Shown here one piece after another: positions 1 to 58,210 of a stretch of 64,000 nt of DNA. The DNA is from Massalongia carnosa (lineage: Eukaryota). The DNA lies in assembly GCA_965645245.1 (NCBI GenBank), contig OZ287071.1, positions 496,001 through 560,000 of the forward strand, in the 5' to 3' direction. How positions within the stretch are numbered: the stretch's first letter is position 1; each line of letters begins with the position of its first letter. The notes under the pieces are model-generated. The model was not told the origin of the DNA, made no database searches, and was given only the letters and a program-made list of their open reading frames with translations. The position numbers and the translations under genes were made by a program.

Positions 1-1919
1 AAATCGCCGCAGGTTGTTGTGGTCTGTAAGCACGAGGACTTCATGCTTATGACCTTCGAGATAATGCCTCCAATTCTTAAAGGCTTCAACGATGGCCAGT
101 AGTCCCCATCGTGAGTTTCGTAATGAGTTTCTGCAGGAATCATTTTCCGAGAAAAATACGCTACTGGGTGCCATTGGCCGGTTTCGATATCCAGCTGGCT
201 AAGAACGCCACCTATGGCGTAACCCGAGGCGCCCGTCTCAAGTCGAATGTGGCGCTCAGGGTCAAAATGTCGGAGGATCGGTGCTTCAGTGAACGCCTGC
301 TTTAATTAGGCAAAGGCTAACTTAGCGGCAGGAGTGAGGAAACAAGATTCTTCCTCTCCGCGCCTTGCCTTTGGGGATGGCCCAGTGTTGGCTACCAAGT
401 TTGTTTTGAGCATCGAGGTGAGTGGAGCAGCAATCATGCTGAACCCCCGGATGAACCGCCGGTAGAAGTTGGCGAATCCCATAAATACCTGGACGTCTCG
501 TACTGACTTGGGTTCTGGCCAGTTCTTGACAGCTTCAATCCTTTCCTCTTCCATACGAATTCCTTGGCCCGAGACAACGTAGCCTAGGAAGCGAACCTTA
601 TCCTGATGAAAACGGCACTTCTTTAGGTTGGCAAAAAGTCCGTTTTTTCGGAGGTTCTCCAAGACCCACTTAACAGTCTCAACGTGGCCTTGGCCTGAGT
701 CCTCGGTATAGATCAGGATGTCATCCAAGTATACGATGACGAAGATGTCGAGTTTCTCTGCTAGAATTTTGTTGATATAGCCCTGGAAACTAGCTGGGGC
801 ATTGGAAAGGCCGAAGGGCATAACTTGATACTCAAAATGGCCATATCGAGTCCTGAAGGCCGTCTTCTATTCGTCACCTTCTCGAATTCGCATCCGACGA
901 TACGCGTTCGTGAGATCCAGATGGGTAAATCGCTTGGCACGGCCTAGTCGATCAAGCGACTCTCCAATCAAGGGTAACGGGTACCGATTCTTGATCGTCA
1001 GGGTATTGAGTCCTCGATAATCCACACACAGGCGGAGACTACCGTCCTTCTTGCGGATGAACAGTATCGGAGCACCAGCCGGAGACTGGGAAGGCCTAAT
1101 AAAACCGCTGGCTAGGTTGGTTTCAATATAGGTTTTCAGTGTCTCTAGTTCCACAGGACCTAGGCTGTAGATTGGGCCATAAGGTGGCTGCTTACCATCT
1201 ACTAGGTCGATAGGATGGTCGTTAATGCCGGTGTGCTCCGGTAGCTCTACTGCGGAGTCAGGGGAGAAGACGTCAGAGAAGTCGGAATATTCAACGGGGA
1301 TCTTGGCCTCCTCGCTCACTAGCGAGGCTACTTGGGCCTGACGAGAGGCGTGGATCGGCATGGACGATGGCTTGCTTACGGCCATTACATGCACCACATA
1401 TGCCTCGTCGTCTCCTCCAAGGACCGCCGCCGCGAATTCTTCCTTATCGATGATCTCCACACGTCTGGTTGTTGGTAAAGCCTCGACAGCTGTGTAGGTT
1501 CTCCAGGCGAGCTCTCGCTCTACGAACCGTATATCCACACTGCTGAGTGTAAGAAAAGGCATTCCCAGGACCACCTCCAGGCTAATATCAGCCAACAAGA
1601 AGGTTTCCTGGAAGAATCGAACCTTCCCTAGCTTGTCCTTGACCGCGAACCCTGCGATAACCATACCGAAGGTATCCAGGTGAGATCCATCAATCTTTTG
1701 CGCCCCAGCATCTGTTTCCCTAACACGAAGCCCTAGTTTCGCGGCATAAGCGGGGTGCATTGCGTTGACCTCGCTGCCCGAATCTATCAAAGCCTGTATC
1801 TCGTCTTGATCCTTCCTCAAACGGACCGGATATCTAATACAAGGAACCCGCTCAAGATTAGCCTCCTTACTAGTTTCAGTCAGAGGCGCGGAGGTTGCCA
1901 AGACCGATACTAGTTTTTT
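1..1919 (-). pseudogene. pol: Gypsy pol (protease, reverse transcriptase, start of RNase H), disrupted
   Basis: ORFs 867..1946 and 306..821 share one frame, broken by TAG at 869-867 (GDE*KTAF, normally W) and TAA at 308-306. The frame continues into RNase H up to the window edge. Confidence 0.92.
1862..1919 (-). promoter_or_regulatory. -1 programmed ribosomal frameshift signal at the gag/pol junction
   Basis: Slippery heptamer A AAA AAC (1919-1913) directly before the gag TAG; pol is in the -1 frame. Downstream TAGTATCGGTC (1912-1902) pairs with GACTGAAACTA (1881-1871), and loop CCTCC (1894-1890) pairs with GGAGG (1866-1862). Confidence 0.8.
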
Positions 1920-3074
1920 GAGGCGTCCTTCTTGGACTCCCGACAAGTACTTGAGTAGTGTCCCTTCTTGTTGCAGTTGAAGCAGGTGATTTGGGACAAG
2001 TCCCTGCTGGTGCCGCTGGAAGTGTTGGCACCGGTGGCCGGAGTGGACTCCGAGCCTTTCCGATCTCGACCTTGATCAAGACGTCGCTGCCTTTTCTTTT
2101 CTCTCCGAGCTTTCTTGTCAGCAATCTCGCTGTTCTCTGGGCGCGAGGAGTTTGATTGCTTCGGACCCGACGGTTTGGGCTTTTCGCTAGGCTCGTCTCG
2201 AGAGTCTCGAGTAGAGGTCTGGGATTTGGCCACAGTGGCATGAGCGGGCCGGTTTCCATGTGGACAACGCTGATCCATCTCACGAAGGATCGATTGCGGC
2301 TGCAGGCTAGCTTTTGCCTCAGCATCGATCGCTTTTTCGACCAGCTCCTCCCAACTGTCTAGTTTCCTTCCTCGTTGTTCCAATTTGGGTATTTATCGAA
2401 GGCTTGAGGCCTTCACGAAGGAACCGGATAAGGTCCGACTCCTCTGGAGCTCCCTCAGCATCAAACTCCAGGAGTATCGATTGTATATGTTCCAGGTGAG
2501 AAGCCTAAGCCTGAACTTCTTCTTGTTGCTACTGGGAGTCTCGCTTGATCCTACTCCAGGTTGCGTCCACAAAAGCCCTGGAGTCTCCAAGATTCTTCCG
2601 AAGGAAAGCCTTGAACTCGGTCCAAGACAAAGGTCCTACCTCTTCGCCTTGGCTTCGATGTTTGTGCTGGTGCCAACGAAAGCTAATCTGGCCACGATGG
2701 AAAGATGCGGCAAAGGGTGTACGGTTTGACCCGGTGGCGCCGGCGGTGTCAAAGTGGTCTTCGCATTATTGGCAGAAATGGTAACACTCCATATGGGACT
2801 TTCCATAGTAGAGATCCGGGAACCGAGCTTTCAACTGACCTTCTCGGGGGCCTTCATGTCGACTACCTTGTGCCTGGAGGAACGACTCCATGCAGAGTTT
2901 TGTGATTCTCTGCAGATCTTCCTCCGTGTATTTAGCAGGGCCCGTAGCTTCCTCAGTGCTTGGTGTCGGTGACTCTTCGGCCTGGGGAGATCTTGTTGGA
3001 TCTTGCCGAACGTTCCTGCGAGGGCGAGAGCTTTGATGACATCGTTTACGGAGTTCAAAAACAGATGGCTCCAC
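1910..3074 (-). pseudogene. gag: Gypsy gag, disrupted
   Basis: Frame reads YYGKSHMECYHFCQ*CEDHFDTAGA...WTEFKAFLRKNLGDS. Stop at 2768-2766, two more stops near 2510-2535, a frameshift near 2384, and a C-terminal CCHC zinc knuckle ending DASKN-TAG at 1910. Confidence 0.85.
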
Positions 3075-3131
3075 TAGCTAAGCTTCCTCTAAACGGGCTG
3101 GCTGACCCGTAGGGTATGAGAGCAATTAGAA

Positions 3132-3405
3132 TTGTAAAGCGCTACGAGACCAGTAAGCTAATCACGAGCGACACTGATCTCGAAAGGGGAAATGCTCAGC
3201 GTGAGAGGTGGAAGATAGCTACTACGTTTGGGTCTCGGACGAGATCTCTTGGTCTAAACACTTCCACATCCGTTAGTTCTTTGGATCACGTATACTCTCG
3301 GAGACCAGCACGTAGTAGCTATCTTCCACCTCTCACGCTGAGCATTTCCCCTTTCGAGATCAGTGTCGCTCGTGATTAGCTTACTGGTCTCGTAGCGCTT
3401 TACAA
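3132..3405. repeat. Long inverted repeat (96-bp perfect arms, 82-nt spacer); probable palindromic 5' LTR TGT...ACA (3133-3404)
   Basis: 3132-3227 is the exact reverse complement of 3310-3405; GGTCTC/GAGACC extends the stem after 3 mismatches. It lies ~60-90 bp upstream of the gag frame. Confidence 0.9.
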
Positions 3406-3886
3406 AGAACCTCGGTCGTTGCCTCAGTATCAGACGTGCGTGGGTTCTAGGAGCCGTCTAAGCCCCTCCGGGTTAGCCTATTCCGCTAAGCTCCTTCGGA
3501 TTAGCGTCCCAGCTGACTAACATGGCTACGATAGCAACGTCCGAGCGCAAAACTAAATATTACGATCAGATATTCGTAATAAATCGTGTATTATTGCGAT
3601 TTTTCGACATTTTGACGTCTTGCTTTTTCGTTTGACACGGGCTATTTCTTCGAAAGAATTCAAGTAGAATTTGTATAGAAAGTTTCCTGAAATTCCTGTT
3701 CGTTGTAAAGTTCATGTGGGGCAATCTGATTGCACTTCGCATAGAAATCGAGAATCGACTTAACGAAAATAACAAGATGTATGTAAAATTGCTCTGCACG
3801 TTATAAACATAAATAAAGATTGAAACTTATTTATGAAAAATTCAAAAATACATCGATCATGTGTGATTCTCTTATTATGATCGTTA

Positions 3887-5804
3887 ATCGTGCTAAACCA
3901 CTTTCGGAATGGAAGGGCATTCCTTAGTGCTTACCATCTCAATGACGCATTGGGCTCAATGTCGTTTTTTTCACTATTACCCACCAAACAATTCACCACA
4001 TCATCAAAACAACCCCGATTGTGAATGTTTCAGTTTTGATACGTAGGGAATTGACTAATCTACCAAAGGTGTGTCGTTGATGAGAAAGGCTATTTGATTC
4101 AGCTGAGAGTTTTTTTTTTTCTCGGTCGCTTTCTCCTCCCTAGCCTTCTTCCGTTTCGCCTTTTCCTCCTCCTTCTGCTTTCTTTTTAAACAAAGCTCCC
4201 TACAACTGACTTACCTTGATGATTCCACCCTGAGAGGCCACCTGTCCACAAAGAACGGCTCGTTTCTGACGTGATGAAGCTGCTTCCTGCATGGCATGAA
4301 GGTCTCAAGTGGTCAAATCCAGAGCATGAGCGGATGCCACCGAACCGCGAACGAACCGTTCAACCTGTTGAACCTCCAGTTTATCATTGGGTCCCGCTTT
4401 GGTAATGGCTCTCTGAAGCTTTCGACCGTACCGAACAACCGATTCGGGCCCATGGGGTGTGCGTTGATTCAATGGAAGGGGGGGGAGGGAGTTCGAATGA
4501 CTGACTCCCTCAATCGTGCCTCCTTTTCTCGAATTTTGTCCAGGACAACGTTTGGGTCAAACGGTACGATACCGGTTGATTTGAACGCATGACGGATGGT
4601 GGATGGTTTGAACGTTTCATTTCGGAAGCCCTGAAATGCAGCGAGAAATTCCAGCTTACCAAACTGACAGTCCCCCAACCGGACAGCCCGATCTATTGCC
4701 TTGGTATGATAGTGTTTGAACGGTTGAAAAACACCTACGTCCAATGGCTGGGTGAGGTGAGTGGAATGAGCTGGTAATCGAAACAAAACGATGTTGTTGG
4801 CAGTGGCTACTTCAAAAAATGGGATGGTCATATGCGATCCAAAACCGTCAATGATTAAAAGTAGCCATGCACCTTGCCTTTTGCTACTCGTATGCTCGAT
4901 GAAGTGATTCAACCAGTCCATAGCTAAATCATCATTTGAATAACCACTGTCGCTGGTGCCAATGAGAATGTCATCATGTAGATCATTTTCCTGACACCAT
5001 TTATGCAAAATCTGCACCCCTGAAATGATGATCAAAGGGGGAATCACCTCCCCTCCAGAACTTATACACTCCACCGTCGTGATATAATCACGATTGTCCG
5101 GGTCCGTCATTCGCAAAGGCTTTTTCGGGTCCATGGTAATCACCATTTGAGCCCGCCCACAGCCAATGCGAAAGCCTGTTTTATCCATGCTCCAAACGTC
5201 CACGTCGGTAATGCCCTTGTTCTCAATAGCAGCCTTCAATTTATAGAAATAATCCCGCATATCTGTGAGACTGTGACTGTTTTTTCGATCCGTCGCCAGG
5301 GGCTTTTGTTTGCGCTTGTTGTACTGTGGATTTCGTTCAAGAAATCGATTGAACCACTGATGCCCCACCTTTCGATTCTCTGAACGAATCAGATAATTCG
5401 CCGCCCCCACAATCATCTTTGGCCTAGCGCACATATTGAACCGGTCACATCGATCAATATACTCGCGAATTGCCTCCTCTTGCTCCTCCGTAAGAGCTTT
5501 GTTGGTGCTGGGGCGGGTGCTTTTCGAATTGGACCCATTCCATCGTCTTTGAAGTTGACGAATGGGCACGTGGTATGCACGCGCAGCCTTGGTGCAATTC
5601 TTATATCAACCATCATGAAGCGCGTCGATGGCCTCTTCGATATGATTTTCGAGTTTATAATAAGAATCAGAAGGCATGGTGTGGGGTGTTTACGTGTCAA
5701 AGATGGTGGGTAGATGGTGAAAAAAACGACATTGAGCCCAATGCGTCATTGAGATGATAAACACTAAGGGATGCCCTTCCATTCCGAAAGTGGTTTAGCA
5801 CGAT
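3887..5804 (-). mobile_element. pogo/Fot1-type DNA transposon with ~100-bp TIRs and TA flanks
   Basis: 3884-3986 and 5704-5807 are inverted copies (4 transitions, 1 indel); TA at 3885-3886 and 5805-5806; encloses a DDE_1-type transposase. Confidence 0.85.
4100..5677 (-). pseudogene. pogo/Fot1 transposase (CENP-B-type HTH plus DDE_1), disrupted; 3' end approximate
   Basis: ATG at 5677, TGA at 5608-5606, motifs VGHQWFNRFL, MDKTGF (normally MDETGF), LIIDGFGSH, LPAHSTHLTQPLDVGVF. Frameshift near 4475 and a further stop near 4306. Confidence 0.88.
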
Positions 5805-5833
5805 TAAGCCACATCTGACCGTAATCTTGGCTC

Positions 5834-6123
5834 CAGACTTGCTACAGATGTGCTGCGTAGTCAGCCTGTTAGCCCGAAGGGGCTTAACGTTCTGTAAGGC
5901 TAACCCGAAGGGGCTTAGCCGGGCACGGCTGTGGTACTGAGGCAAGCATCAGACTTGCTACAGATGTGCTGCGTAGTCAGCCTGTTAACCCGAAGGGGCT
6001 TAACGTTCGGTAAGGCTAATCCGAAGGGGCTTAACGCTCTTTAAGTCTAATCCGAAGGGGCTTAACGTTCTGTAAGGCTAATCTGAAGGGGCTTAACGTT
6101 CTGTAAGGCTAATCCGAAGGGGC
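5834..6123 (+). repeat. Duplicated element end (period 116 bp) plus 31-bp tandem repeat
   Basis: CAGACTTGCTACAGATGTGCTGCGTAGTCAGCCTGTTA... starts at both 5834 and 5950. The unit CTAATCCGAAGGGGCTTAACGTTCTGTAAGG repeats ~4.5 times at 5985-6123. Confidence 0.92.
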
Positions 6124-7455
6124 GTCTGAGGCAACTCGGTCGCGCAAATTCCAACAACATAAAATATGTTTTCGGCCTAGCGCCTTGCATAGCCGCCTCA
6201 GGCATTTTTTCCTTCAGCTTATGTTGATACCTCAACAACTCAGCTTGCCCTCTTCCGTATGAGTTTCGCGGAAGAGCAAATGGAGGCTATGATCATCTTC
6301 ATCCAGCTGATTAGTCCAACAGCCGTCTCCTTCGCAACCAAAGTAGGTCGCTAGTAACCCGCCAAACGACTGTTGATTAGCCTGTTGACCGAATGCCACC
6401 CCCAAGCCAATTAGCAAGTGCCCCAACCAGCCTTTTGTGGATCAACCTTGGCTTGGTTCTGCCCTACCTGTGTAGCCGACTTGCTAAATGTGTACATTGG
6501 CGGAAGATCCAGTGATCATTCAACGACCCAACGTACCATAACCAGACAAGCAACTTCTGCCGACAGTCGTGATGTCCCCAAACCAGAGATTGCGCAGTCG
6601 AGATGCTATGCTACTGCGCGTCCTCTGTGTGACACTTTGGTGATTTCTCTTTTTTTCTCTCTGTGATGGCGTTTGAGTAGTCTCTTTCCATGCGGCTCCT
6701 GAAGGACCATTTACCATTTTCGAGAAACCCTACCCTCAGGTCTTTGGAATAGCCTAGTATGAGACTTACGATGAAGGAGATAGCTTCCATTGAGGCATTG
6801 CTAGTTCCTCTTAGGCTCCAATGCGCTTTCGTGTCTTTTTCCTTATGTTTTTTTTTCAGAATTACTTGCAACGTTTCTTTGTGACCTACAGGAGGAAGCG
6901 GCAAACTTCTACCTAGCGGTTTATCCTCTTCTAGCCCAGAAGTCTTCAGAGCCATTCCGACAATGTAGGCGAGAGCAAAATAAGCCCAGTCCGCAGGCAG
7001 CATCACGGCACTGCCCATTCTAACTCGAGAATGAGTTTGAAAGTGGAGGACTCCTTAGTACTTAAACCTCCTAATGCTCTCCAATTCCACCTGTCTTTCG
7101 TCCACAATTCACTTTCTATTGAGCGTACCTGCATTAACTGAATTGGAGTTACCTTTCGACTTACATTGCATTACAGTATCGGTCTGCACTTACGATCTTC
7201 CTGGGTCTCCACACCGTCTTTGCTCTTCATTATACTCATTGCCGTTCACACCAACCCTCGGCCTTGCTCTTCACTTGCAAGGACATTCAGCCTCCATCAA
7301 CCATCTCTGCTACACGTCACTAATCCTCATCACTCCAACCCCGCTGCCCTTATACCATACCATCGTCAACATCTAATTAAGCTTCTCGGTCCTCTGCAAA
7401 CCGGTCGCTACCAACGTCCATCACATACCCAATCCAACCCGCTACCTTTGCCAAA

Positions 7456-37227: not shown

Positions 37228-37335
37228 AATTGATCCGAAAATCCTCGTTGACAATCGATTGACATGAATTCGGAACAAAGCTGCATATTGTCACGTGATT
37301 GGTTTGTGATCATCCCCCATTTATTAGCCGCATTA

Positions 37336-39206
37336 CAGAGGCGAATCTCAAAAGTAATGATAATACGCTAAAAGCTAGTGCCGTAATTTAAATTTTCCGT
37401 ACCGAGCAAAGTTTCCCCTTTTCTTTCCCCTTTTCTCATCCCAAATCATTGACGAACCAACATATGATCAAATCATCATCATGGTCAATAAATCTGCTGA
37501 TATTTCTTTGCGGGCTCAGGGCTTGACGTTGTCTTATTGCACCCCGGCCTCAATTGAATTTATTGCAGCTACTATAGGTTATTCTGTCCCCAACATTTAT
37601 CGTATTCGTCGCATTGCCAGGGATCGAGGATTTGATCCCGCCATTTCTTTGCAGGTGCTTGATAAATACGCCCGTCATGAAGAAAAATCTGGTCGACCGA
37701 GAAAGGCTACTACTGAGAAAGAAGATGAAGTCATTGATCTAGTCATAAAAGACAGATACGCCCGTGAAAAAACCAGTGCCCAGTTGGCAAGAGAAGTTGG
37801 ACTGTCCAGATGCACCGTGTGGAGAATCCTAAAACAAAGAGGCTATAAAAAAGTCAAACCGTCGTATAGACCAGGGCTTACTCCTGAAATGAAAGCGGCT
37901 AGACTGGCTTTTTGTCTCCTGTATAAAGACTGGACCGTGGAGGATTGGAAGCGGGTTATTTGGTCAGATGAAACAGCAATAGTGCTTGGTCACCGTCGCG
38001 GAGCTGTCAAAATTTGGCGTACAACCAAGGAAGGAAGAAGACCAGTCAAATCCACCGTACGTGCTAGGTGGCATGGGGCTCATGAATTCATGTTTTGGGG
38101 ATGCTTTTCCTACGATTGGAAGGGGCCATGTCATTGCTGGAAACCGGAGACAAAAGCGGAAAAAGCGGAAGCCAAAGCCAAGCTTGACGAGATGAATGCT
38201 GCATTGGAAGCCAGTGAGAGATTAAATTGGGAGCTGACCAATGGAATGAGACGTCTTTCAACTCGCAGTTTACCAGGAAAAAAGCCGCAATGGAAATGGG
38301 ATGAGGAACATGGAAAGATGATCAGAAAAGAAGGTAAAGGAGGCATTGATTGGTGGCGGTATCAAAACGTCATACTTCTGCCAAAACCGATTCCTTTTGC
38401 TCAGCAATGCAATGCAAAAAGAAGAGAAGCCGGATTGTCTGAAATGATCGTACAAGAAGATAAGGCTCTGTCTCATGCTTCCAAGCATCAGATTCCCATC
38501 TTCTCTCGTCATGGCATCGAGCGTCTTTTATGGCCCGGAAATTCTCCTGATCTCAACATGATTGAACCCTGCTGGCCCTGGATGAAGCGACGTACAACTG
38601 CCAAAGGTCCTCCTAGTTCTCGGTTAATTGCTGAATCTATGTGGCATCGCACTTGGGACGATCTACCTCAGGAGAATATTCAGGCATGGATTGAAAGAAT
38701 TCCACGTCACATTGCAAAAGTCATTGAATTGGAAGGTGGAAATGAGTATTGCGAAGGACGTTTGGACGTTGATGGAAGGACCAAAGAAGGAAAAATGCGA
38801 CTTCAACAGCTGAGGGAAGAATTGCTCAGTAATACAGCAAAACCAGCTTCTTCTTCTTCTTCTTCTTCTTCTTCTGTAGCGTCAACGAGACCATCATCCA
38901 GACAATCAAATGATGATGCACCCAGAACGTTGAATGTCAGGGCAGTTACCCCTGAGCCCCCTACACAGAAGCCATTGACACCCCCCTTATTGAGAAAAAG
39001 AGCCGATTTATCTCCGAAAAATTACCTTCCCCCACGCATTCAAAAGGTGGTTCGTACTGCAGCCAGTTTCAGACCAAAAAGACGTTGATTAGATGGTTGG
39101 TAATGGCATTTGTAGATAGTTGGTAGAATTTCAGGCTCGGTATGGAAAATCTAAATTACGGCGCTAGTCTTTAGCGTATTATCATTACTTTTGAGATTCG
39201 CCTCCG
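37336..39206 (+). mobile_element. Tc1-family DNA transposon, full length (1871 bp), 72-bp TIRs, TA target duplication
   Basis: 37336-37407 and 39135-39206 are inverted copies with 6 mismatches; TA at 37334-37335 and 39207-39208. Confidence 0.93.
37481..39088 (+). CDS. Tc1 transposase, DD34E, uninterrupted 535 aa
   Basis: SGRPRK, HTH region, VIWSDE, FMFWGCF, QED...WPGNSPDLNMIE with 34 residues between the second D and the E. Confidence 0.92.
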   Translation: MVNKSADISLRAQGLTLSYCTPASIEFIAATIGYSVPNIYRIRRIARDRGFDPAISLQVLDKYARHEEKSGRPRKATTEKEDEVIDLVIKDRYAREKTSAQLAREVGLSRCTVWRILKQRGYKKVKPSYRPGLTPEMKAARLAFCLLYKDWTVEDWKRVIWSDETAIVLGHRRGAVKIWRTTKEGRRPVKSTVRARWHGAHEFMFWGCFSYDWKGPCHCWKPETKAEKAEAKAKLDEMNAALEASERLNWELTNGMRRLSTRSLPGKKPQWKWDEEHGKMIRKEGKGGIDWWRYQNVILLPKPIPFAQQCNAKRREAGLSEMIVQEDKALSHASKHQIPIFSRHGIERLLWPGNSPDLNMIEPCWPWMKRRTTAKGPPSSRLIAESMWHRTWDDLPQENIQAWIERIPRHIAKVIELEGGNEYCEGRLDVDGRTKEGKMRLQQLREELLSNTAKPASSSSSSSSSVASTRPSSRQSNDDAPRTLNVRAVTPEPPTQKPLTPPLLRKRADLSPKNYLPPRIQKVVRTAASFRPKRR

Positions 39207-39460
39207 TACACATATTCATATTGCGGGTTACACCTTCTGGATGGTTTTTATATTATTGGCTTTTTTGAATCATCAACCATTCAGTCATTCAGTTCCTTAC
39301 CTCTATAATTAAAGGTCCTACTCGGCAGCGGTCCTGCCGGATTATCCTCTCCAAATCCTTGCTCCTGTTCGAGCTGACTCCATGATGTGGGGGTCTAGCC
39401 GGGTATCACAAAATCCATAGCGCAATTCAACAAACGCTCATCCAACACCTCCTTCGTGAT

Positions 39461-55031: not shown

Positions 55032-56904
55032 TATTCTCGAAGATTGTAAAAGAGAGTTTAGTTGCCACCTCGATGGAGTGAGATTACTGACTTGGTAGGT
55101 ACACAGTTACCTGTGATTGGTCAGTTACCCGAACCCTACAAACCCTACAAACCCTAGATCGTGACGGCTGAAAATAGGCGTGCGTGGCGTCCACCGATCA
55201 TTATTATCAACAGTAACATCAAGTCTATCATGTTTATGCCCAATTCTACCTCTACCGCCACAATCTGGCAAACAAGATCGTAGTCTTATGAGTCAACTGA
55301 TGGCCAAAGGCCATTTGGAACGGGGTCTTACGAGCCAGTGTTGATTTACCATACTTTTTATACGAGAGACAGGGGTGAACATGGTCAAAAAACCCGTATT
55401 GGAACATGGTCTTGTAAGCTTAGTGGCCTTATGGGGCCCTTGAGCCTGGGATTTAAATCGCTGCACTACTAGTGCACCCATCCTTTCATCATCCTCTTTG
55501 ACAATCTGCAAGTATTCCAACAACCAGGGCCAGAATAGCTTAGCCGATCGGCTTGTAATGTTCTGTCATGACCCGTGTCAAGAGGTCTCGAATTCCTCTT
55601 GGGCCTTGAGGTCTCTTCCTCATAATACTGGCGGTACGAGTTCGTGGGAGTCCAGGCGTCAGATCCGAACCCATCAGCTATATAAGGCGTTCCTGATTAG
55701 CTTGATTGAGTTTCGCGGTGCTTGACCGCTCCGTAGTTGCGCTCTCTGTTCGGTGAGTTCTAAATAGAGATATCGCTGATTGAACCTCATCTAGCAAAGA
55801 ACCTTTTTTCCGCGGATGAAGCCATCGCAAGAGTGTAGTTCATTCTCCTTCCTCGCTTCGGAGGCTCCACGTCTTTTTCGCACCTTGGACCTTTTGTTAA
55901 TGCTTCAACAGGCACCTAATAGACGGGCCAGCAAACCTGCTCTCCTATCTCAATTCTGATATCGTTGGCTAAGCATTGTAACGAAGGTGTTTTCGCCCAT
56001 CGGTGGAGCCATTCTCGGGGTTGCAGCTTCCGTATGATTTCGCCTCTTCACAGCCATCGTCCAAGGAGAATGAAGGCTACATGGAAGAGAAAACAACAGT
56101 TATGGTATAGGAGGTCGAAACTGTTGGCGTTGTGACTAGTACTCGCTTCCACGCCGAAACTTGAGGGAAAAAACGATGTACCAAGTCTGTAACTACTGGT
56201 TTCTAGCACCTGCATGGCCGCCGTCTATTCGTTAAAAGCCCTTTCAACGGCATTCTCAATCAAAGCCCACGCTCGCAAGGGCATACTCCACAGGCATACC
56301 CAAATAATGCCTATCATAAGCCTATGTCTTCAAGGTCATCGGAAGCACCTTTTCTTTTGTCTATTCTATGACAGAAATAATTGTCACCACTCCATCGTCA
56401 CGTTGTAAAACTAGAATTTGGCGCCTTTGGTCTAGCAAAAATCGGTCTTAACTTGTAGAGTTCCTCACGGTAAGGTAGTTTCGGTTGTCCCTAGAGATCT
56501 AGAACTAGATCTTATAATCGTCGATCTTCGACTTCTCTATCTGCCCAGTAAATGAGCCCGTAGATCGTTGTACGGCTTCTCTCAATACAAGGCTGTGGTT
56601 GAAAAAGCAATCAATGTAGGCATTTTGGCTGGTCGTATTAATCTGTGGACGATTTCTAGTAAGAAACCAGTCGTCTGATCTCAAAGTCAGCGCCCGAATG
56701 AAAGTATTCAAGAAAAGCAACCCATTGATGGTACTTAAGTTCTCAGATCAATCATTTCATTCCTACAGGAACTTCAGTTAAACAGCATAGCTTATCCTTT
56801 GTCCTTCGTCTTGTCTAGATGTGTTGACGAGTCGTTTGGTTCAGCTGCTGTTAACTAAAAGTATTGGTTCGCAGATGAAAAAAAGGGAGAGAGGGAAAGA
56901 ACAA

Positions 56905-57126
56905 GAAAGAGAAAGAGAAAGAGAAAGAGAAAGAGAAAGAGAAAGAGAAAGAGAAAGAGAAAGAGAAAGAGAAAGAGAAAGAGAAAGAGAAAGAGAAAGA
57001 GAAAGAGAAAGAGAAAGAGAAAGAGAAAGAGAAAGAGAAAGAGAAAGAGAAAGAGAAAGAGAAAGAGAAAGAGAAAGAGAAAGAGAAAGAGAAAGAGAAA
57101 GAGAAAGAGAAAGAGAAAGAGAAAGA
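56905..57126. repeat. (GAAAGA)37 hexanucleotide microsatellite
   Basis: 222 bp of perfect repeat read directly. Confidence 0.97.
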
Positions 57127-58210
57127 AGAAACGGGAAAGACGAAAAGAAAACGAACGGGATGGACTGAAACGCATCCCATCTATGCCGCAAGGCAAAGCC
57201 AGGCCAAAGCACAAGGAACAAAACCAAGACCAATGGATTGGACCCCAGTCGAGCCGAAACGAAAGATCCTAGTTCATCCGTTGAACAAACCTGAGGATGA
57301 AAGAAAGAAGGGATTCTCAAAACCCTTTCAACAGAGCGAGTAAACTGTTCCGACTAGCCTCCAGGGGGGAACGAAGGGCGGACGGAGTAGAACAGTGAAC
57401 AGGTAGAAAAGAACCGATGAACGAGCAAAAAGACAGAGACTTAAAAAAGAGAACATAGAGTTGTGCCTCAACTGCGCTTTAAAAGGAGAAGAAGGGAAGG
57501 AAGAGAGGAAGATTTAGATATAGTATAATTAGGTAGGCAGGAAGGTAGATGAGGAGCTTGGGATATACGCGACAAGAAAATGACGAACGAAAGAAAAGGG
57601 AAAGGAAGAAGGAGGCAACGAGAGCACTACCATCCCTCCACCACGACGGTACCATATCACGAAAATGACTCTCTCTCGCCTGAGCAGCTGACTCCGTTGT
57701 GATTCCGCTATCCACCAAAACCAGCTCTGCTCACGCTGCAGAAACCTGCCTTTCTCTCTATCATGCCTCTACCCCCTAATATGTCACGCACCGTATCCAC
57801 TACATATATCCAACCCCCCTCTCACCAATATGCTGCTCCAAAGATAAATACAATATATACCCAGGGATAAACGTGAAAGGAAAGAAAAACATGGAAAGAA
57901 GAAAGGGAACTTTGATCCGATGGGTAGGAATGGACAGTATAGCTTGGACAGGTAGGTAGGTAGATATAGTATAACATGAGGGGAAGATCGAGTTTTTTGT
58001 TTTTAAAAAAAATGAAAAGGGAGATGGAAAGCTGATGTTGGATATCTTATGATAAGGAAGGAAATCAACCCCTACGATGAAGACAATAAAATCGATTCTG
58101 ACAACTCACCGTTCAACAATGAAGGTTCTTTACCTATAAAGTACCTCAAGAGCACTTTTCATATCAGACTGCGAAAACAACCAACCTGCCGTTGCGCAAG
58201 CGCCAATTCC

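What the first reader, a model, noticed from the sequence alone, without database searches (positions are those of the whole stretch)
3132..3405. Gypsy element whose 5' LTR appears to be a fold-back palindrome
Seen: a 272-bp TGT...ACA unit made of perfect inverted arms (3132-3227 / 3310-3405) around an 82-nt spacer, sitting where the 5' LTR should be. No TGG-type tRNA primer-binding site follows it (minus strand continues ATTCTAATTGCTCTC), and I found no Tf1-style self-priming complement within the unit. Known: LTRs normally have only short inverted termini. Inference: U3 would be the reverse complement of U5, so LTR transcripts would form a long hairpin. That could mean an unusual priming or strand-transfer route that keeps the arms identical, or a source of siRNA. 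The arms have no mismatches although gag/pol carry many lesions and nearby TIR pairs have diverged. Alternative: an independent MITE, since AGAA flanks 3132-3405 on both sides.
Basis: partly seen in the sequence, partly recalled or inferred. Interest (0 to 1): 0.8.

Follow-up and report, generated by a model that had tools for sequence, protein, structure and literature searches.

The report
Reverse-transcription snap-back fossil in retrotransposon
A fungal jumping gene carries a hairpin at its start that looks like a copying accident: the first piece of DNA it made folded back on itself. Such products are thought to be dead ends, yet three copies in this genome start this way.

Summary
The palindrome is real, but it is neither the family's LTR nor a MITE.

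The element is a fungal chromovirus. Its ordinary LTR is about 1.03 kb, with 5-bp TSDs, a PPT and a Tf1-type self-primer that matches the PBS. In the window copy the 5' LTR is replaced by the antisense of the last 183 nt of R-U5. This is joined, at the top-ranked natural stem, to the last 95 nt of U5, the PBS and gag.

Of 33 element 5' ends in the genome, 30 are ordinary and 3 start with inverted U5; two of those share this junction. Within each of those two copies, both arms carry the same rare family allele. The spacer orientation fits minus-strand strong-stop DNA that snapped back, copied U5 and the primer, and then served as the plus strand. It does not fit a chromosomal fold-back. The mechanism is inferred, not shown.

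Snap-back is described for HIV-1 in vitro as a dead end; eight literature searches found no integrated example. Arm identity needs no special upkeep (P about 0.08). All three copies lack a 3' end, so no TSD test was possible.

The parts
3133..3404 (.). 272-bp hairpin replacing the 5' LTR of a Gypsy/chromovirus copy
3133..3227 (-). Inner arm: last 95 nt of U5 in normal orientation, next to the PBS; inferred to be the snap-back extension product
   Evidence: (LTR 957-1063 hit ends at the LTR terminus)
3222..3404 (+). [quoted passage not shown]
   Evidence: spacer: 5 differences to the reverse complement of a sibling LTR, 46 to its sense strand
3222..3227 (.). Novel junction inside the CTACGT/ACGTAG hexamer that closes the natural R-U5 stem (6 bp + 3x3 loop + 6 bp)
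   Evidence: rank 1 of 173 possible 3' ends in 3 of 4 sibling LTRs
3310..3404 (+). Outer arm: inverted U5 ending exactly at the LTR terminus ACA, joined to unique host DNA
3121..3132 (-). 3-nt spacer ATT plus 9-nt primer-binding site CTAATTGCT of Tf1 self-priming type
1..3077 (-). Degenerate gag (zinc knuckle), protease, RT and RNase H; continues left of the window into integrase and breaks off at G000:C5:495108, with no 3' LTR in the 19 kb examined beyond
3419..6134 (.). Unrelated multicopy DNA transposon (TIR TTGCCTCAG) with 8-bp TSD CTCGGTCG at 3411-3418 and 6135-6142, inserted 6 bp from the hairpin end; contains a nested pogo/Tc5-type element (TIRs 3884-3977 and 5714-5807)

Best explanation
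The hairpin is the fossil of an aberrant reverse-transcription round of an ordinary self-priming chromovirus. (1) The 9-nt RNA self-primer starts minus-strand synthesis at the PBS. (2) The strong-stop DNA, ending at or trimmed to about 183 nt, fails first-strand transfer; its 3' end GAGACC-CAA-ACGTAG snaps back onto CTACGT-GCT-GGTCTC. (3) RT extends it back over U5, the 3-nt spacer and the still-attached primer, so the hairpin ends in a sense PBS. [quoted passage not shown] (5) The minus strand copies through the unfolded hairpin, giving a left end that is a second U5 end (ACA), which is joined to host DNA. The product has no U3, TATA or self-primer, so it should be dead on arrival, and it decays neutrally. 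Shown: the structure, the spacer orientation, the junction site, the recurrence and the shared alleles. Inferred: steps 2-5.
For: Spacer orientation: the spacer is antisense on the coding strand (5 vs 46 differences), as a fold-back of a strand whose 5' end is the U5 terminus predicts. Ends: the inverted piece stops exactly at the LTR terminus in both hairpin copies and, apart from one base change and a 2-nt alignment edge, in the third, and it lies wholly within the inferred R-U5 strong-stop range (primer at LTR 853-861). Junction: rank 1 of 173 possible 3' ends for snap-back stability in 3 of 4 ordinary sibling LTRs, and the unit's own first 183 nt fold with the terminal base paired. Recurrence: the same junction occurs at C5 and C20 with different flanks, and a third inverted-U5 start at C3 has a shorter fold-back. 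Shared rare alleles: the C20 allele is in 6 of 293 U5 matches, 2 being its own arms; the C5 terminal haplotype has 7 exact matches, 2 being its own arms. Precedents for the separate steps, from passages read: snap-back with elongation to the primer end in HIV-1 in vitro (PMC6088434, PMC4668388); about 50% of Tf1 cDNA carries a copied PBS (PMC11042837); proposed inter-molecular plus-strand transfer giving asymmetric LTRs (PMC9278108).
Against: All 3 copies lack an intact 3' end, so neither a TSD nor a U5-U5 full-length product could be shown. The C3 junction ranks only 9th to 36th of 173, and junction 183 ranks 15th in sibling L081. The fold-back point is 19 nt short of the inferred full strong-stop end, and the transcription start is inferred, not mapped. 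The C20 arms differ at 1 site, and the 10-nt C3 arms differ at several. The HIV review says self-primed products are dead ends and were not detected in endogenous reactions (PMC6088434). One common origin of C5 and C20 is not formally rejected (p-AU 0.166). Public contigs gave no listed piece across the hairpin junction (tables cut).
Confidence: 0.72

Rival explanations
1. Trans version inside the particle: a truncated strong-stop DNA from one RNA primes plus-strand synthesis by annealing to the U5' part of a minus strand made on the other RNA, with no intramolecular hairpin.
For: It gives the same junction and orientation. The arms of both C20 and C3 differ at LTR position -6, a family-polymorphic site. 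The only 5'/3' LTR difference of young copy L087 is at -5, hinting that PBS-proximal bases can come from a second template.
Against: The arms share rare alleles further inside. The intramolecular stem is the most stable option. It needs a minus strand that runs past the PBS into U5.
Confidence: 0.12
2. Genomic rearrangement: a second LTR inserted head-to-head upstream of an ordinary element, then a deletion at the inverted microhomology fused the two.
For: About 293 U5 ends are scattered through the genome. The outer ACA-host junction would be explained directly. All three copies are old and rearranged.
Against: An independent LTR carries the matching rare allele in about 4 of 291 (C20) and 5 of about 291 (C5) cases. 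Random U5 pairs differ by 3.0 nt on average over 1830 pairs, against 0 and 1 here, although 152 of the 1830 pairs are identical. It needs the same breakpoint twice.
Confidence: 0.08
3. Chromosomal break inside an integrated 5' LTR, healed by DNA fold-back.
For: Uses the same natural stem.
Against: It predicts a sense spacer on the coding strand and a palindrome running on into PBS and gag. The spacer is antisense in all three cases and the arm stops at the LTR end.
Confidence: 0.03
4. One reading: a family whose LTR is a fold-back palindrome, or an independent MITE.
For: The TGT...ACA ends, the position, and AGAA on both sides.
Against: 30 of 33 5' ends are ordinary. The junction occurs exactly only twice genome-wide and always next to the PBS. 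The left AGAA is part of the PBS region and C20 has another flank.
Confidence: 0.02
5. Assembly or library fold-back artefact.
For: No read-level view of the junction was obtained.
Against: There are two loci on different contigs, 96% alike, each with its own alleles in both arms, one with an arm mismatch. Their ends lie exactly at the LTR terminus, with non-palindromic flanks. The C5 copy's 3' junction is bridged in runs X1 and X4.
Confidence: 0.03

Closest known systems
Self-priming (snap-back) of HIV-1 minus-strand strong-stop DNA (PMC6088434, PMC4668388; passages read)
   Same: The 3' end of the strong-stop DNA folds onto an R/U5 stem and RT extends it back towards the primer.
   Different: Described in vitro as a dead-end or abortive product. 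Here the inferred product was rescued through its PBS, joined to gag-pol and fixed in a chromosome, in a fungal retrotransposon.
Tf1/sushi-group chromoviruses (PMC4600332; bioRxiv 10.1101/2022.12.06.519325; passages read)
   Same: Chromodomain integrase; PBS complementary to a sequence at the inferred start of R; LTR ends in CA; PPT; 5-bp TSD.
   Different: 3 of 33 copies have an inverted R-U5 instead of U3-R. The full three-duplex 'pretzel' was not demonstrated.
Asymmetric-LTR HIV-1 proviruses (PMC9278108) and aberrant strand-transfer proviruses (PMC12657518); passages read
   Same: Integrated products with unequal LTRs, explained by abnormal or inter-molecular strand transfer at the PBS.
   Different: Those are deletions. 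In the passages seen there is no inverted U5 replacing the 5' LTR.
Integrase-independent Tf1 insertion via a single-stranded PBS tail (PMC11042837; passages read)
   Same: Shows the self-primer is copied into a DNA PBS tail able to anneal elsewhere. One-ended capture with distal truncation could explain the missing 3' ends.
   Different: Yields tandem or PBS-homology insertions, not hairpin ends. Flank homology to the tail here is only 1-2 nt.

Membership tests
Ty3/Gypsy chromovirus (the element family) | PR-RT-RNase H-integrase order with a C-terminal chromodomain | tested here: met
   Window: zf-CCHC, aspartyl protease, RVT_1. Sibling L067 pol frame: RVT_1, RT_RNaseH, Integrase_H2C2, rve, SH3_Tf2-1, Chromo E=1.1e-12. 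The window copy itself breaks off before the chromodomain.
Ty3/Gypsy chromovirus (the element family) | Two direct LTRs, PPT and TSD | tested here: met
   Met for siblings: 10 of 13 two-LTR copies have a 5-bp TSD and 13 of 13 have the PPT. Not met for the window copy, which has no 3' LTR.
Tf1/sushi self-priming group | PBS complementary to the 5' end of the element's own RNA | tested here: met
   9-nt perfect complement at LTR 853, 34 nt after a TATA-like motif; chance expectation 0.004; it closes the MFE fold of the R-U5-PBS RNA in 2 of 2 copies folded. The transcription start itself is not mapped.
Tf1/sushi self-priming group | Three-duplex 'pretzel' around the PBS | tested here: inconclusive
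   Candidate flanking duplexes exist but are not in the MFE fold.
Snap-back product of minus strong-stop DNA | Antisense R-U5 starting at the U5 terminus, joined at a stem to sense U5 and primer copy | tested here: met
Snap-back product of minus strong-stop DNA | Direct detection as an RT intermediate | not testable with these tools
   Needs cDNA sequencing or an in vitro RT reaction.
Integrase-made insertion (hairpin copies) | 5-bp TSD around both ends | tested here: inconclusive
   All 3 copies lack the 3' end; C5 shows no TTCTT at its break.
MITE | Stand-alone multicopy TIR element with a TSD | tested here: not met
   2 exact junction copies, both next to the PBS; flanks are not duplicated.
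Family-wide palindromic LTR | Same hairpin at both ends and in most members | tested here: not met
   30 of 33 5' ends are ordinary; the other 38 of the 40 loci scored match only 181-184 nt of the unit.

The most novel reading that the evidence does not exclude
Snap-back of strong-stop DNA is a regular side route of plus-strand priming in self-priming chromoviruses. Because the self-primer stays attached, the hairpin gains a PBS and is rescued into integrable cDNA with U5 at both ends, in up to about a tenth of insertions. Each such insertion plants a near-perfect 95-bp U5 hairpin that could, by read-through, yield siRNA against some 290 family LTRs.
Probability: 0.2. Interest if true: 0.72.

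Novelty: new variant of a known kind. Interest (0 to 1): 0.5.

Why it matters
Self-primed strong-stop DNA is treated as a test-tube dead end that nucleocapsid suppresses. Three independent-looking genomic copies, with junctions at predicted stems, suggest it happens in vivo and can be rescued and inserted. They give an exact sequence signature (inverted U5 end + stem junction + U5 + PBS) that can be searched for in any LTR family or provirus set. Such copies are invisible to paired-LTR finders and can be mistaken for MITEs. They also show that an LTR element can end in two U5 termini and can create its own long inverted repeats. The finding is not a new class of LTR, so its weight is mechanistic rather than taxonomic.

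Tried and rejected
3' LTR or TSD for the hairpin copies: none found. For C5, 19 kb beyond the break were examined (L030, L098); for C20, about 26 kb beyond (L033, L117, L118); for C3, about 20 kb beyond (L115, L116). Both C5 flanks are single-copy, so no empty site was available.

Public runs: no RNA holder was listed. Laying contigs of 4 of the 14 listed runs showed no piece or joint across the hairpin junction, but 51 joints and 7186 pieces were not shown, so this is uninformative.

JGI metagenomes: 0 hits for the junction motif and 1 unrelated chance hit for the PBS motif.

Active arm homogenisation was considered and is not needed. The shared alleles also occur in ordinary LTRs, so they can be inherited.

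'All three lack a 3' end' is not treated as significant, because several equally old ordinary copies are also truncated (L077, L081, L088, L095, L097).

Both hairpin copies carry the stem-strengthening C allele, but this is confounded with subfamily and was not used. The third hit (L036) is an ordinary LTR fragment. A simple chromosomal fold-back was rejected on spacer orientation.

Full report
Observation. The palindrome exists as described. 3132-3405 has perfect 96-nt arms around 82 nt; the TGT...ACA core is 3133-3404. It sits 5' of a minus-strand gag-pol with zinc-knuckle, protease and RT hits. The window is G000:C5:496001-560000 of a 52-Mb, 25-contig genome.

It is not the family LTR. Of the 40 candidates scored out of 347, 38 match only the last 181-184 nt of the unit and two (C5, C20) match all of it. 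The ordinary LTR is about 1.03-1.06 kb. Among 13 two-LTR copies, 10 have a 5-bp TSD, all 13 have a PPT, and 7 have identical LTRs, so the family is young. A sibling's pol frame carries RT, RNase H, integrase, SH3 and Chromo domains. The PBS CTAATTGCT, 3 nt after the LTR, is perfectly complementary to AGCAATTAG at LTR 853, 34 nt after a TATA-like motif (chance 0.004). This fits Tf1/sushi self-priming as described in PMC4600332 and bioRxiv 10.1101/2022.12.06.519325 (passages). The start of R is inferred from this match, not mapped.

Census. A leader motif finds 33 element 5' ends, and all 33 were examined. Thirty have LTR sequence in ordinary orientation: 19 full length, 3 internally deleted, 3 truncated, and 5 of an older long-U5 subfamily. 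Three begin with an inverted U5 end. C5 (the window) and C20 read, on the coding strand, as the reverse complement of LTR 881-1063, then the last 95 nt of U5, ATT, PBS and gag. The junction motif occurs exactly at these two places only; a third, 3-mismatch hit is an ordinary LTR fragment. The C3 copy has about 52 nt of inverted U5, then the last 10 nt of U5 and the PBS. The MITE reading fails: the left AGAA belongs to the PBS region, and C20 has a different right flank.

What made it. [quoted passage not shown] First, the spacer is antisense on the coding strand (5 differences to a sibling's reverse complement, 46 to its sense strand). A strand that begins at the U5 terminus and folds back gives this; a broken chromosome folding back inside a 5' LTR gives the opposite and would run on into gag. 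Second, the inverted piece ends at the LTR terminus and stays within R-U5. Third, the junction closes the strongest natural stem, ranking 1 of 173 possible 3' ends in siblings L096, L068 and L073, and 15 in L081, which has a changed stem base. The C3 junction ranks only 9, 11, 17 and 36 in the same four, which is weaker support. Fourth, the arms of one copy share rare alleles. The C20 allele is in 6 of 293 U5 matches, 2 being its own arms; the C5 terminal haplotype has 7 exact matches, 2 being its own arms. Random U5 pairs differ by 3.0 nt on average (1830 pairs from 61 of 66 ends, 5 gapped ends dropped; 152 pairs identical), against 0 and 1 here.

Inferred pathway. The strong-stop DNA snaps back and RT extends over U5 and the attached RNA self-primer. 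The new PBS end makes the plus-strand transfer onto a minus strand, probably from the other packaged RNA. The minus strand then copies through the opened hairpin, and the resulting second U5 end is joined to host DNA. Each step has a separate precedent in passages I read. Snap-back and extension are described for HIV-1 in vitro, called dead-end and not detected in endogenous reactions (PMC6088434). An abortive product elongated to the primer end is reported in PMC4668388; its Supplementary Fig. S2 bears on this and was not viewed. A copied PBS is found on about 50% of Tf1 cDNA (PMC11042837). Inter-molecular plus-strand transfer was proposed for asymmetric-LTR proviruses (PMC9278108). The combination is my inference.

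Independence and age. Over 2.1 kb of 24 copies (9 of 33 left out as interrupted or too short), C5 and C20 share a 21-column indel with two ordinary-LTR copies and only 1 exclusive column. They group together in 2% of bootstrap trees, but one clade is not rejected (p-AU 0.166). Different flanks and different arm haplotypes favour two events. By reasoning, an element without U3 and self-primer cannot pass the hairpin on through normal reverse transcription. C5 and C20 have 26 and 19 private differences; from these, 4.1 arm mismatches are expected and 1 is seen (P about 0.08). The perfect arms are therefore compatible with neutral decay.

Against and open. All three copies lack a 3' end: C5 breaks in integrase, C20 jumps from RNase H into 229 bp of U3 and is then cut, and C3 breaks at about internal position 3500. 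No TSD can be tested, and integrase-made versus repair-made insertion is open. Truncation is also common in ordinary copies of similar age. The fold-back lies 19 nt short of the inferred strong-stop end. The C20 and C3 arms both differ at LTR position -6, a polymorphic site, and young copy L087's only LTR difference is at -5. This may mean that PBS-proximal bases come from a second template, which fits either step 4 or the trans rival. Public contigs bridge C5's 3' junction in runs X1 and X4 (two samples, one study) but gave no view of the hairpin junction. Expression and siRNA could not be tested. A younger subfamily with identical LTRs expanded after these copies arose, which does not suggest strong silencing by the hairpins.

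Novelty. Eight full-text searches found no report of an integrated element whose 5' LTR is replaced by a snap-back of strong-stop DNA. The library lacks most subscription and older papers, where aberrant retroviral or Ty ends may be described. For PMC12657518 and PMC10986323 I saw passages only; other listed papers were seen as listings only. Verdict: a real, recurrent aberrant product of an ordinary self-priming chromovirus, and a new variant of a known kind. Interest 0.5.

Noticed in passing
window 3419-6134: Multicopy DNA transposon with TIR TTGCCTCAG and 8-bp TSD (229 candidates); the 8-bp TSD suggests hAT (recalled). It carries 31-nt tandem repeats near its right end and a nested pogo/Tc5-type element (3884-5807). 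A piece resembling its end also lies next to the C20 copy's 3' break.
   Followed up: partly
L075, L077, L080, L088, L089 (e.g. G000:C12:35637): Older subfamily whose LTR has about 175-180 extra nt in U5, next to the stem where the fold-back occurs.
   Followed up: partly
L087 (G000:C20:1322450-1332350): Its two LTRs differ at one base only, 5 nt from the LTR end, and the 5' LTR allele is shared with other copies. This hints that PBS-proximal U5 bases can come from a second template.
   Followed up: partly
L095, L097: Internal 3' end - single LTR - internal 5' start arrangement, like tandem elements sharing one LTR.
   Followed up: no
L078, L085, L090: Three copies with an internally deleted LTR, PBS and leader but no gag-pol match: a possible non-autonomous derivative.
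   Followed up: no
L070, L072, L083, L086, L087, L092: Six copies share the same ~1-kb internal deletion (internal 3644-4635) across two clades, so a deleted form is being mobilised in trans or recombined.
   Followed up: no
L079, about 5745-6370 nt after the 5' LTR: Its 3' LTR (1-317) is joined to an inverted LTR piece (194-810): another inverted LTR junction, in U3.
   Followed up: no
window 37334-39208: A second TIR pair (74 nt, 92%) 1.7 kb apart, probably another DNA transposon.
   Followed up: no
window 56834-57181: Long (AAAGAG)n hexamer array.
   Followed up: no
L032 602-3619: About 3 kb tandem array with a 126-bp period, some 6 kb upstream of the C20 hairpin.
   Followed up: no
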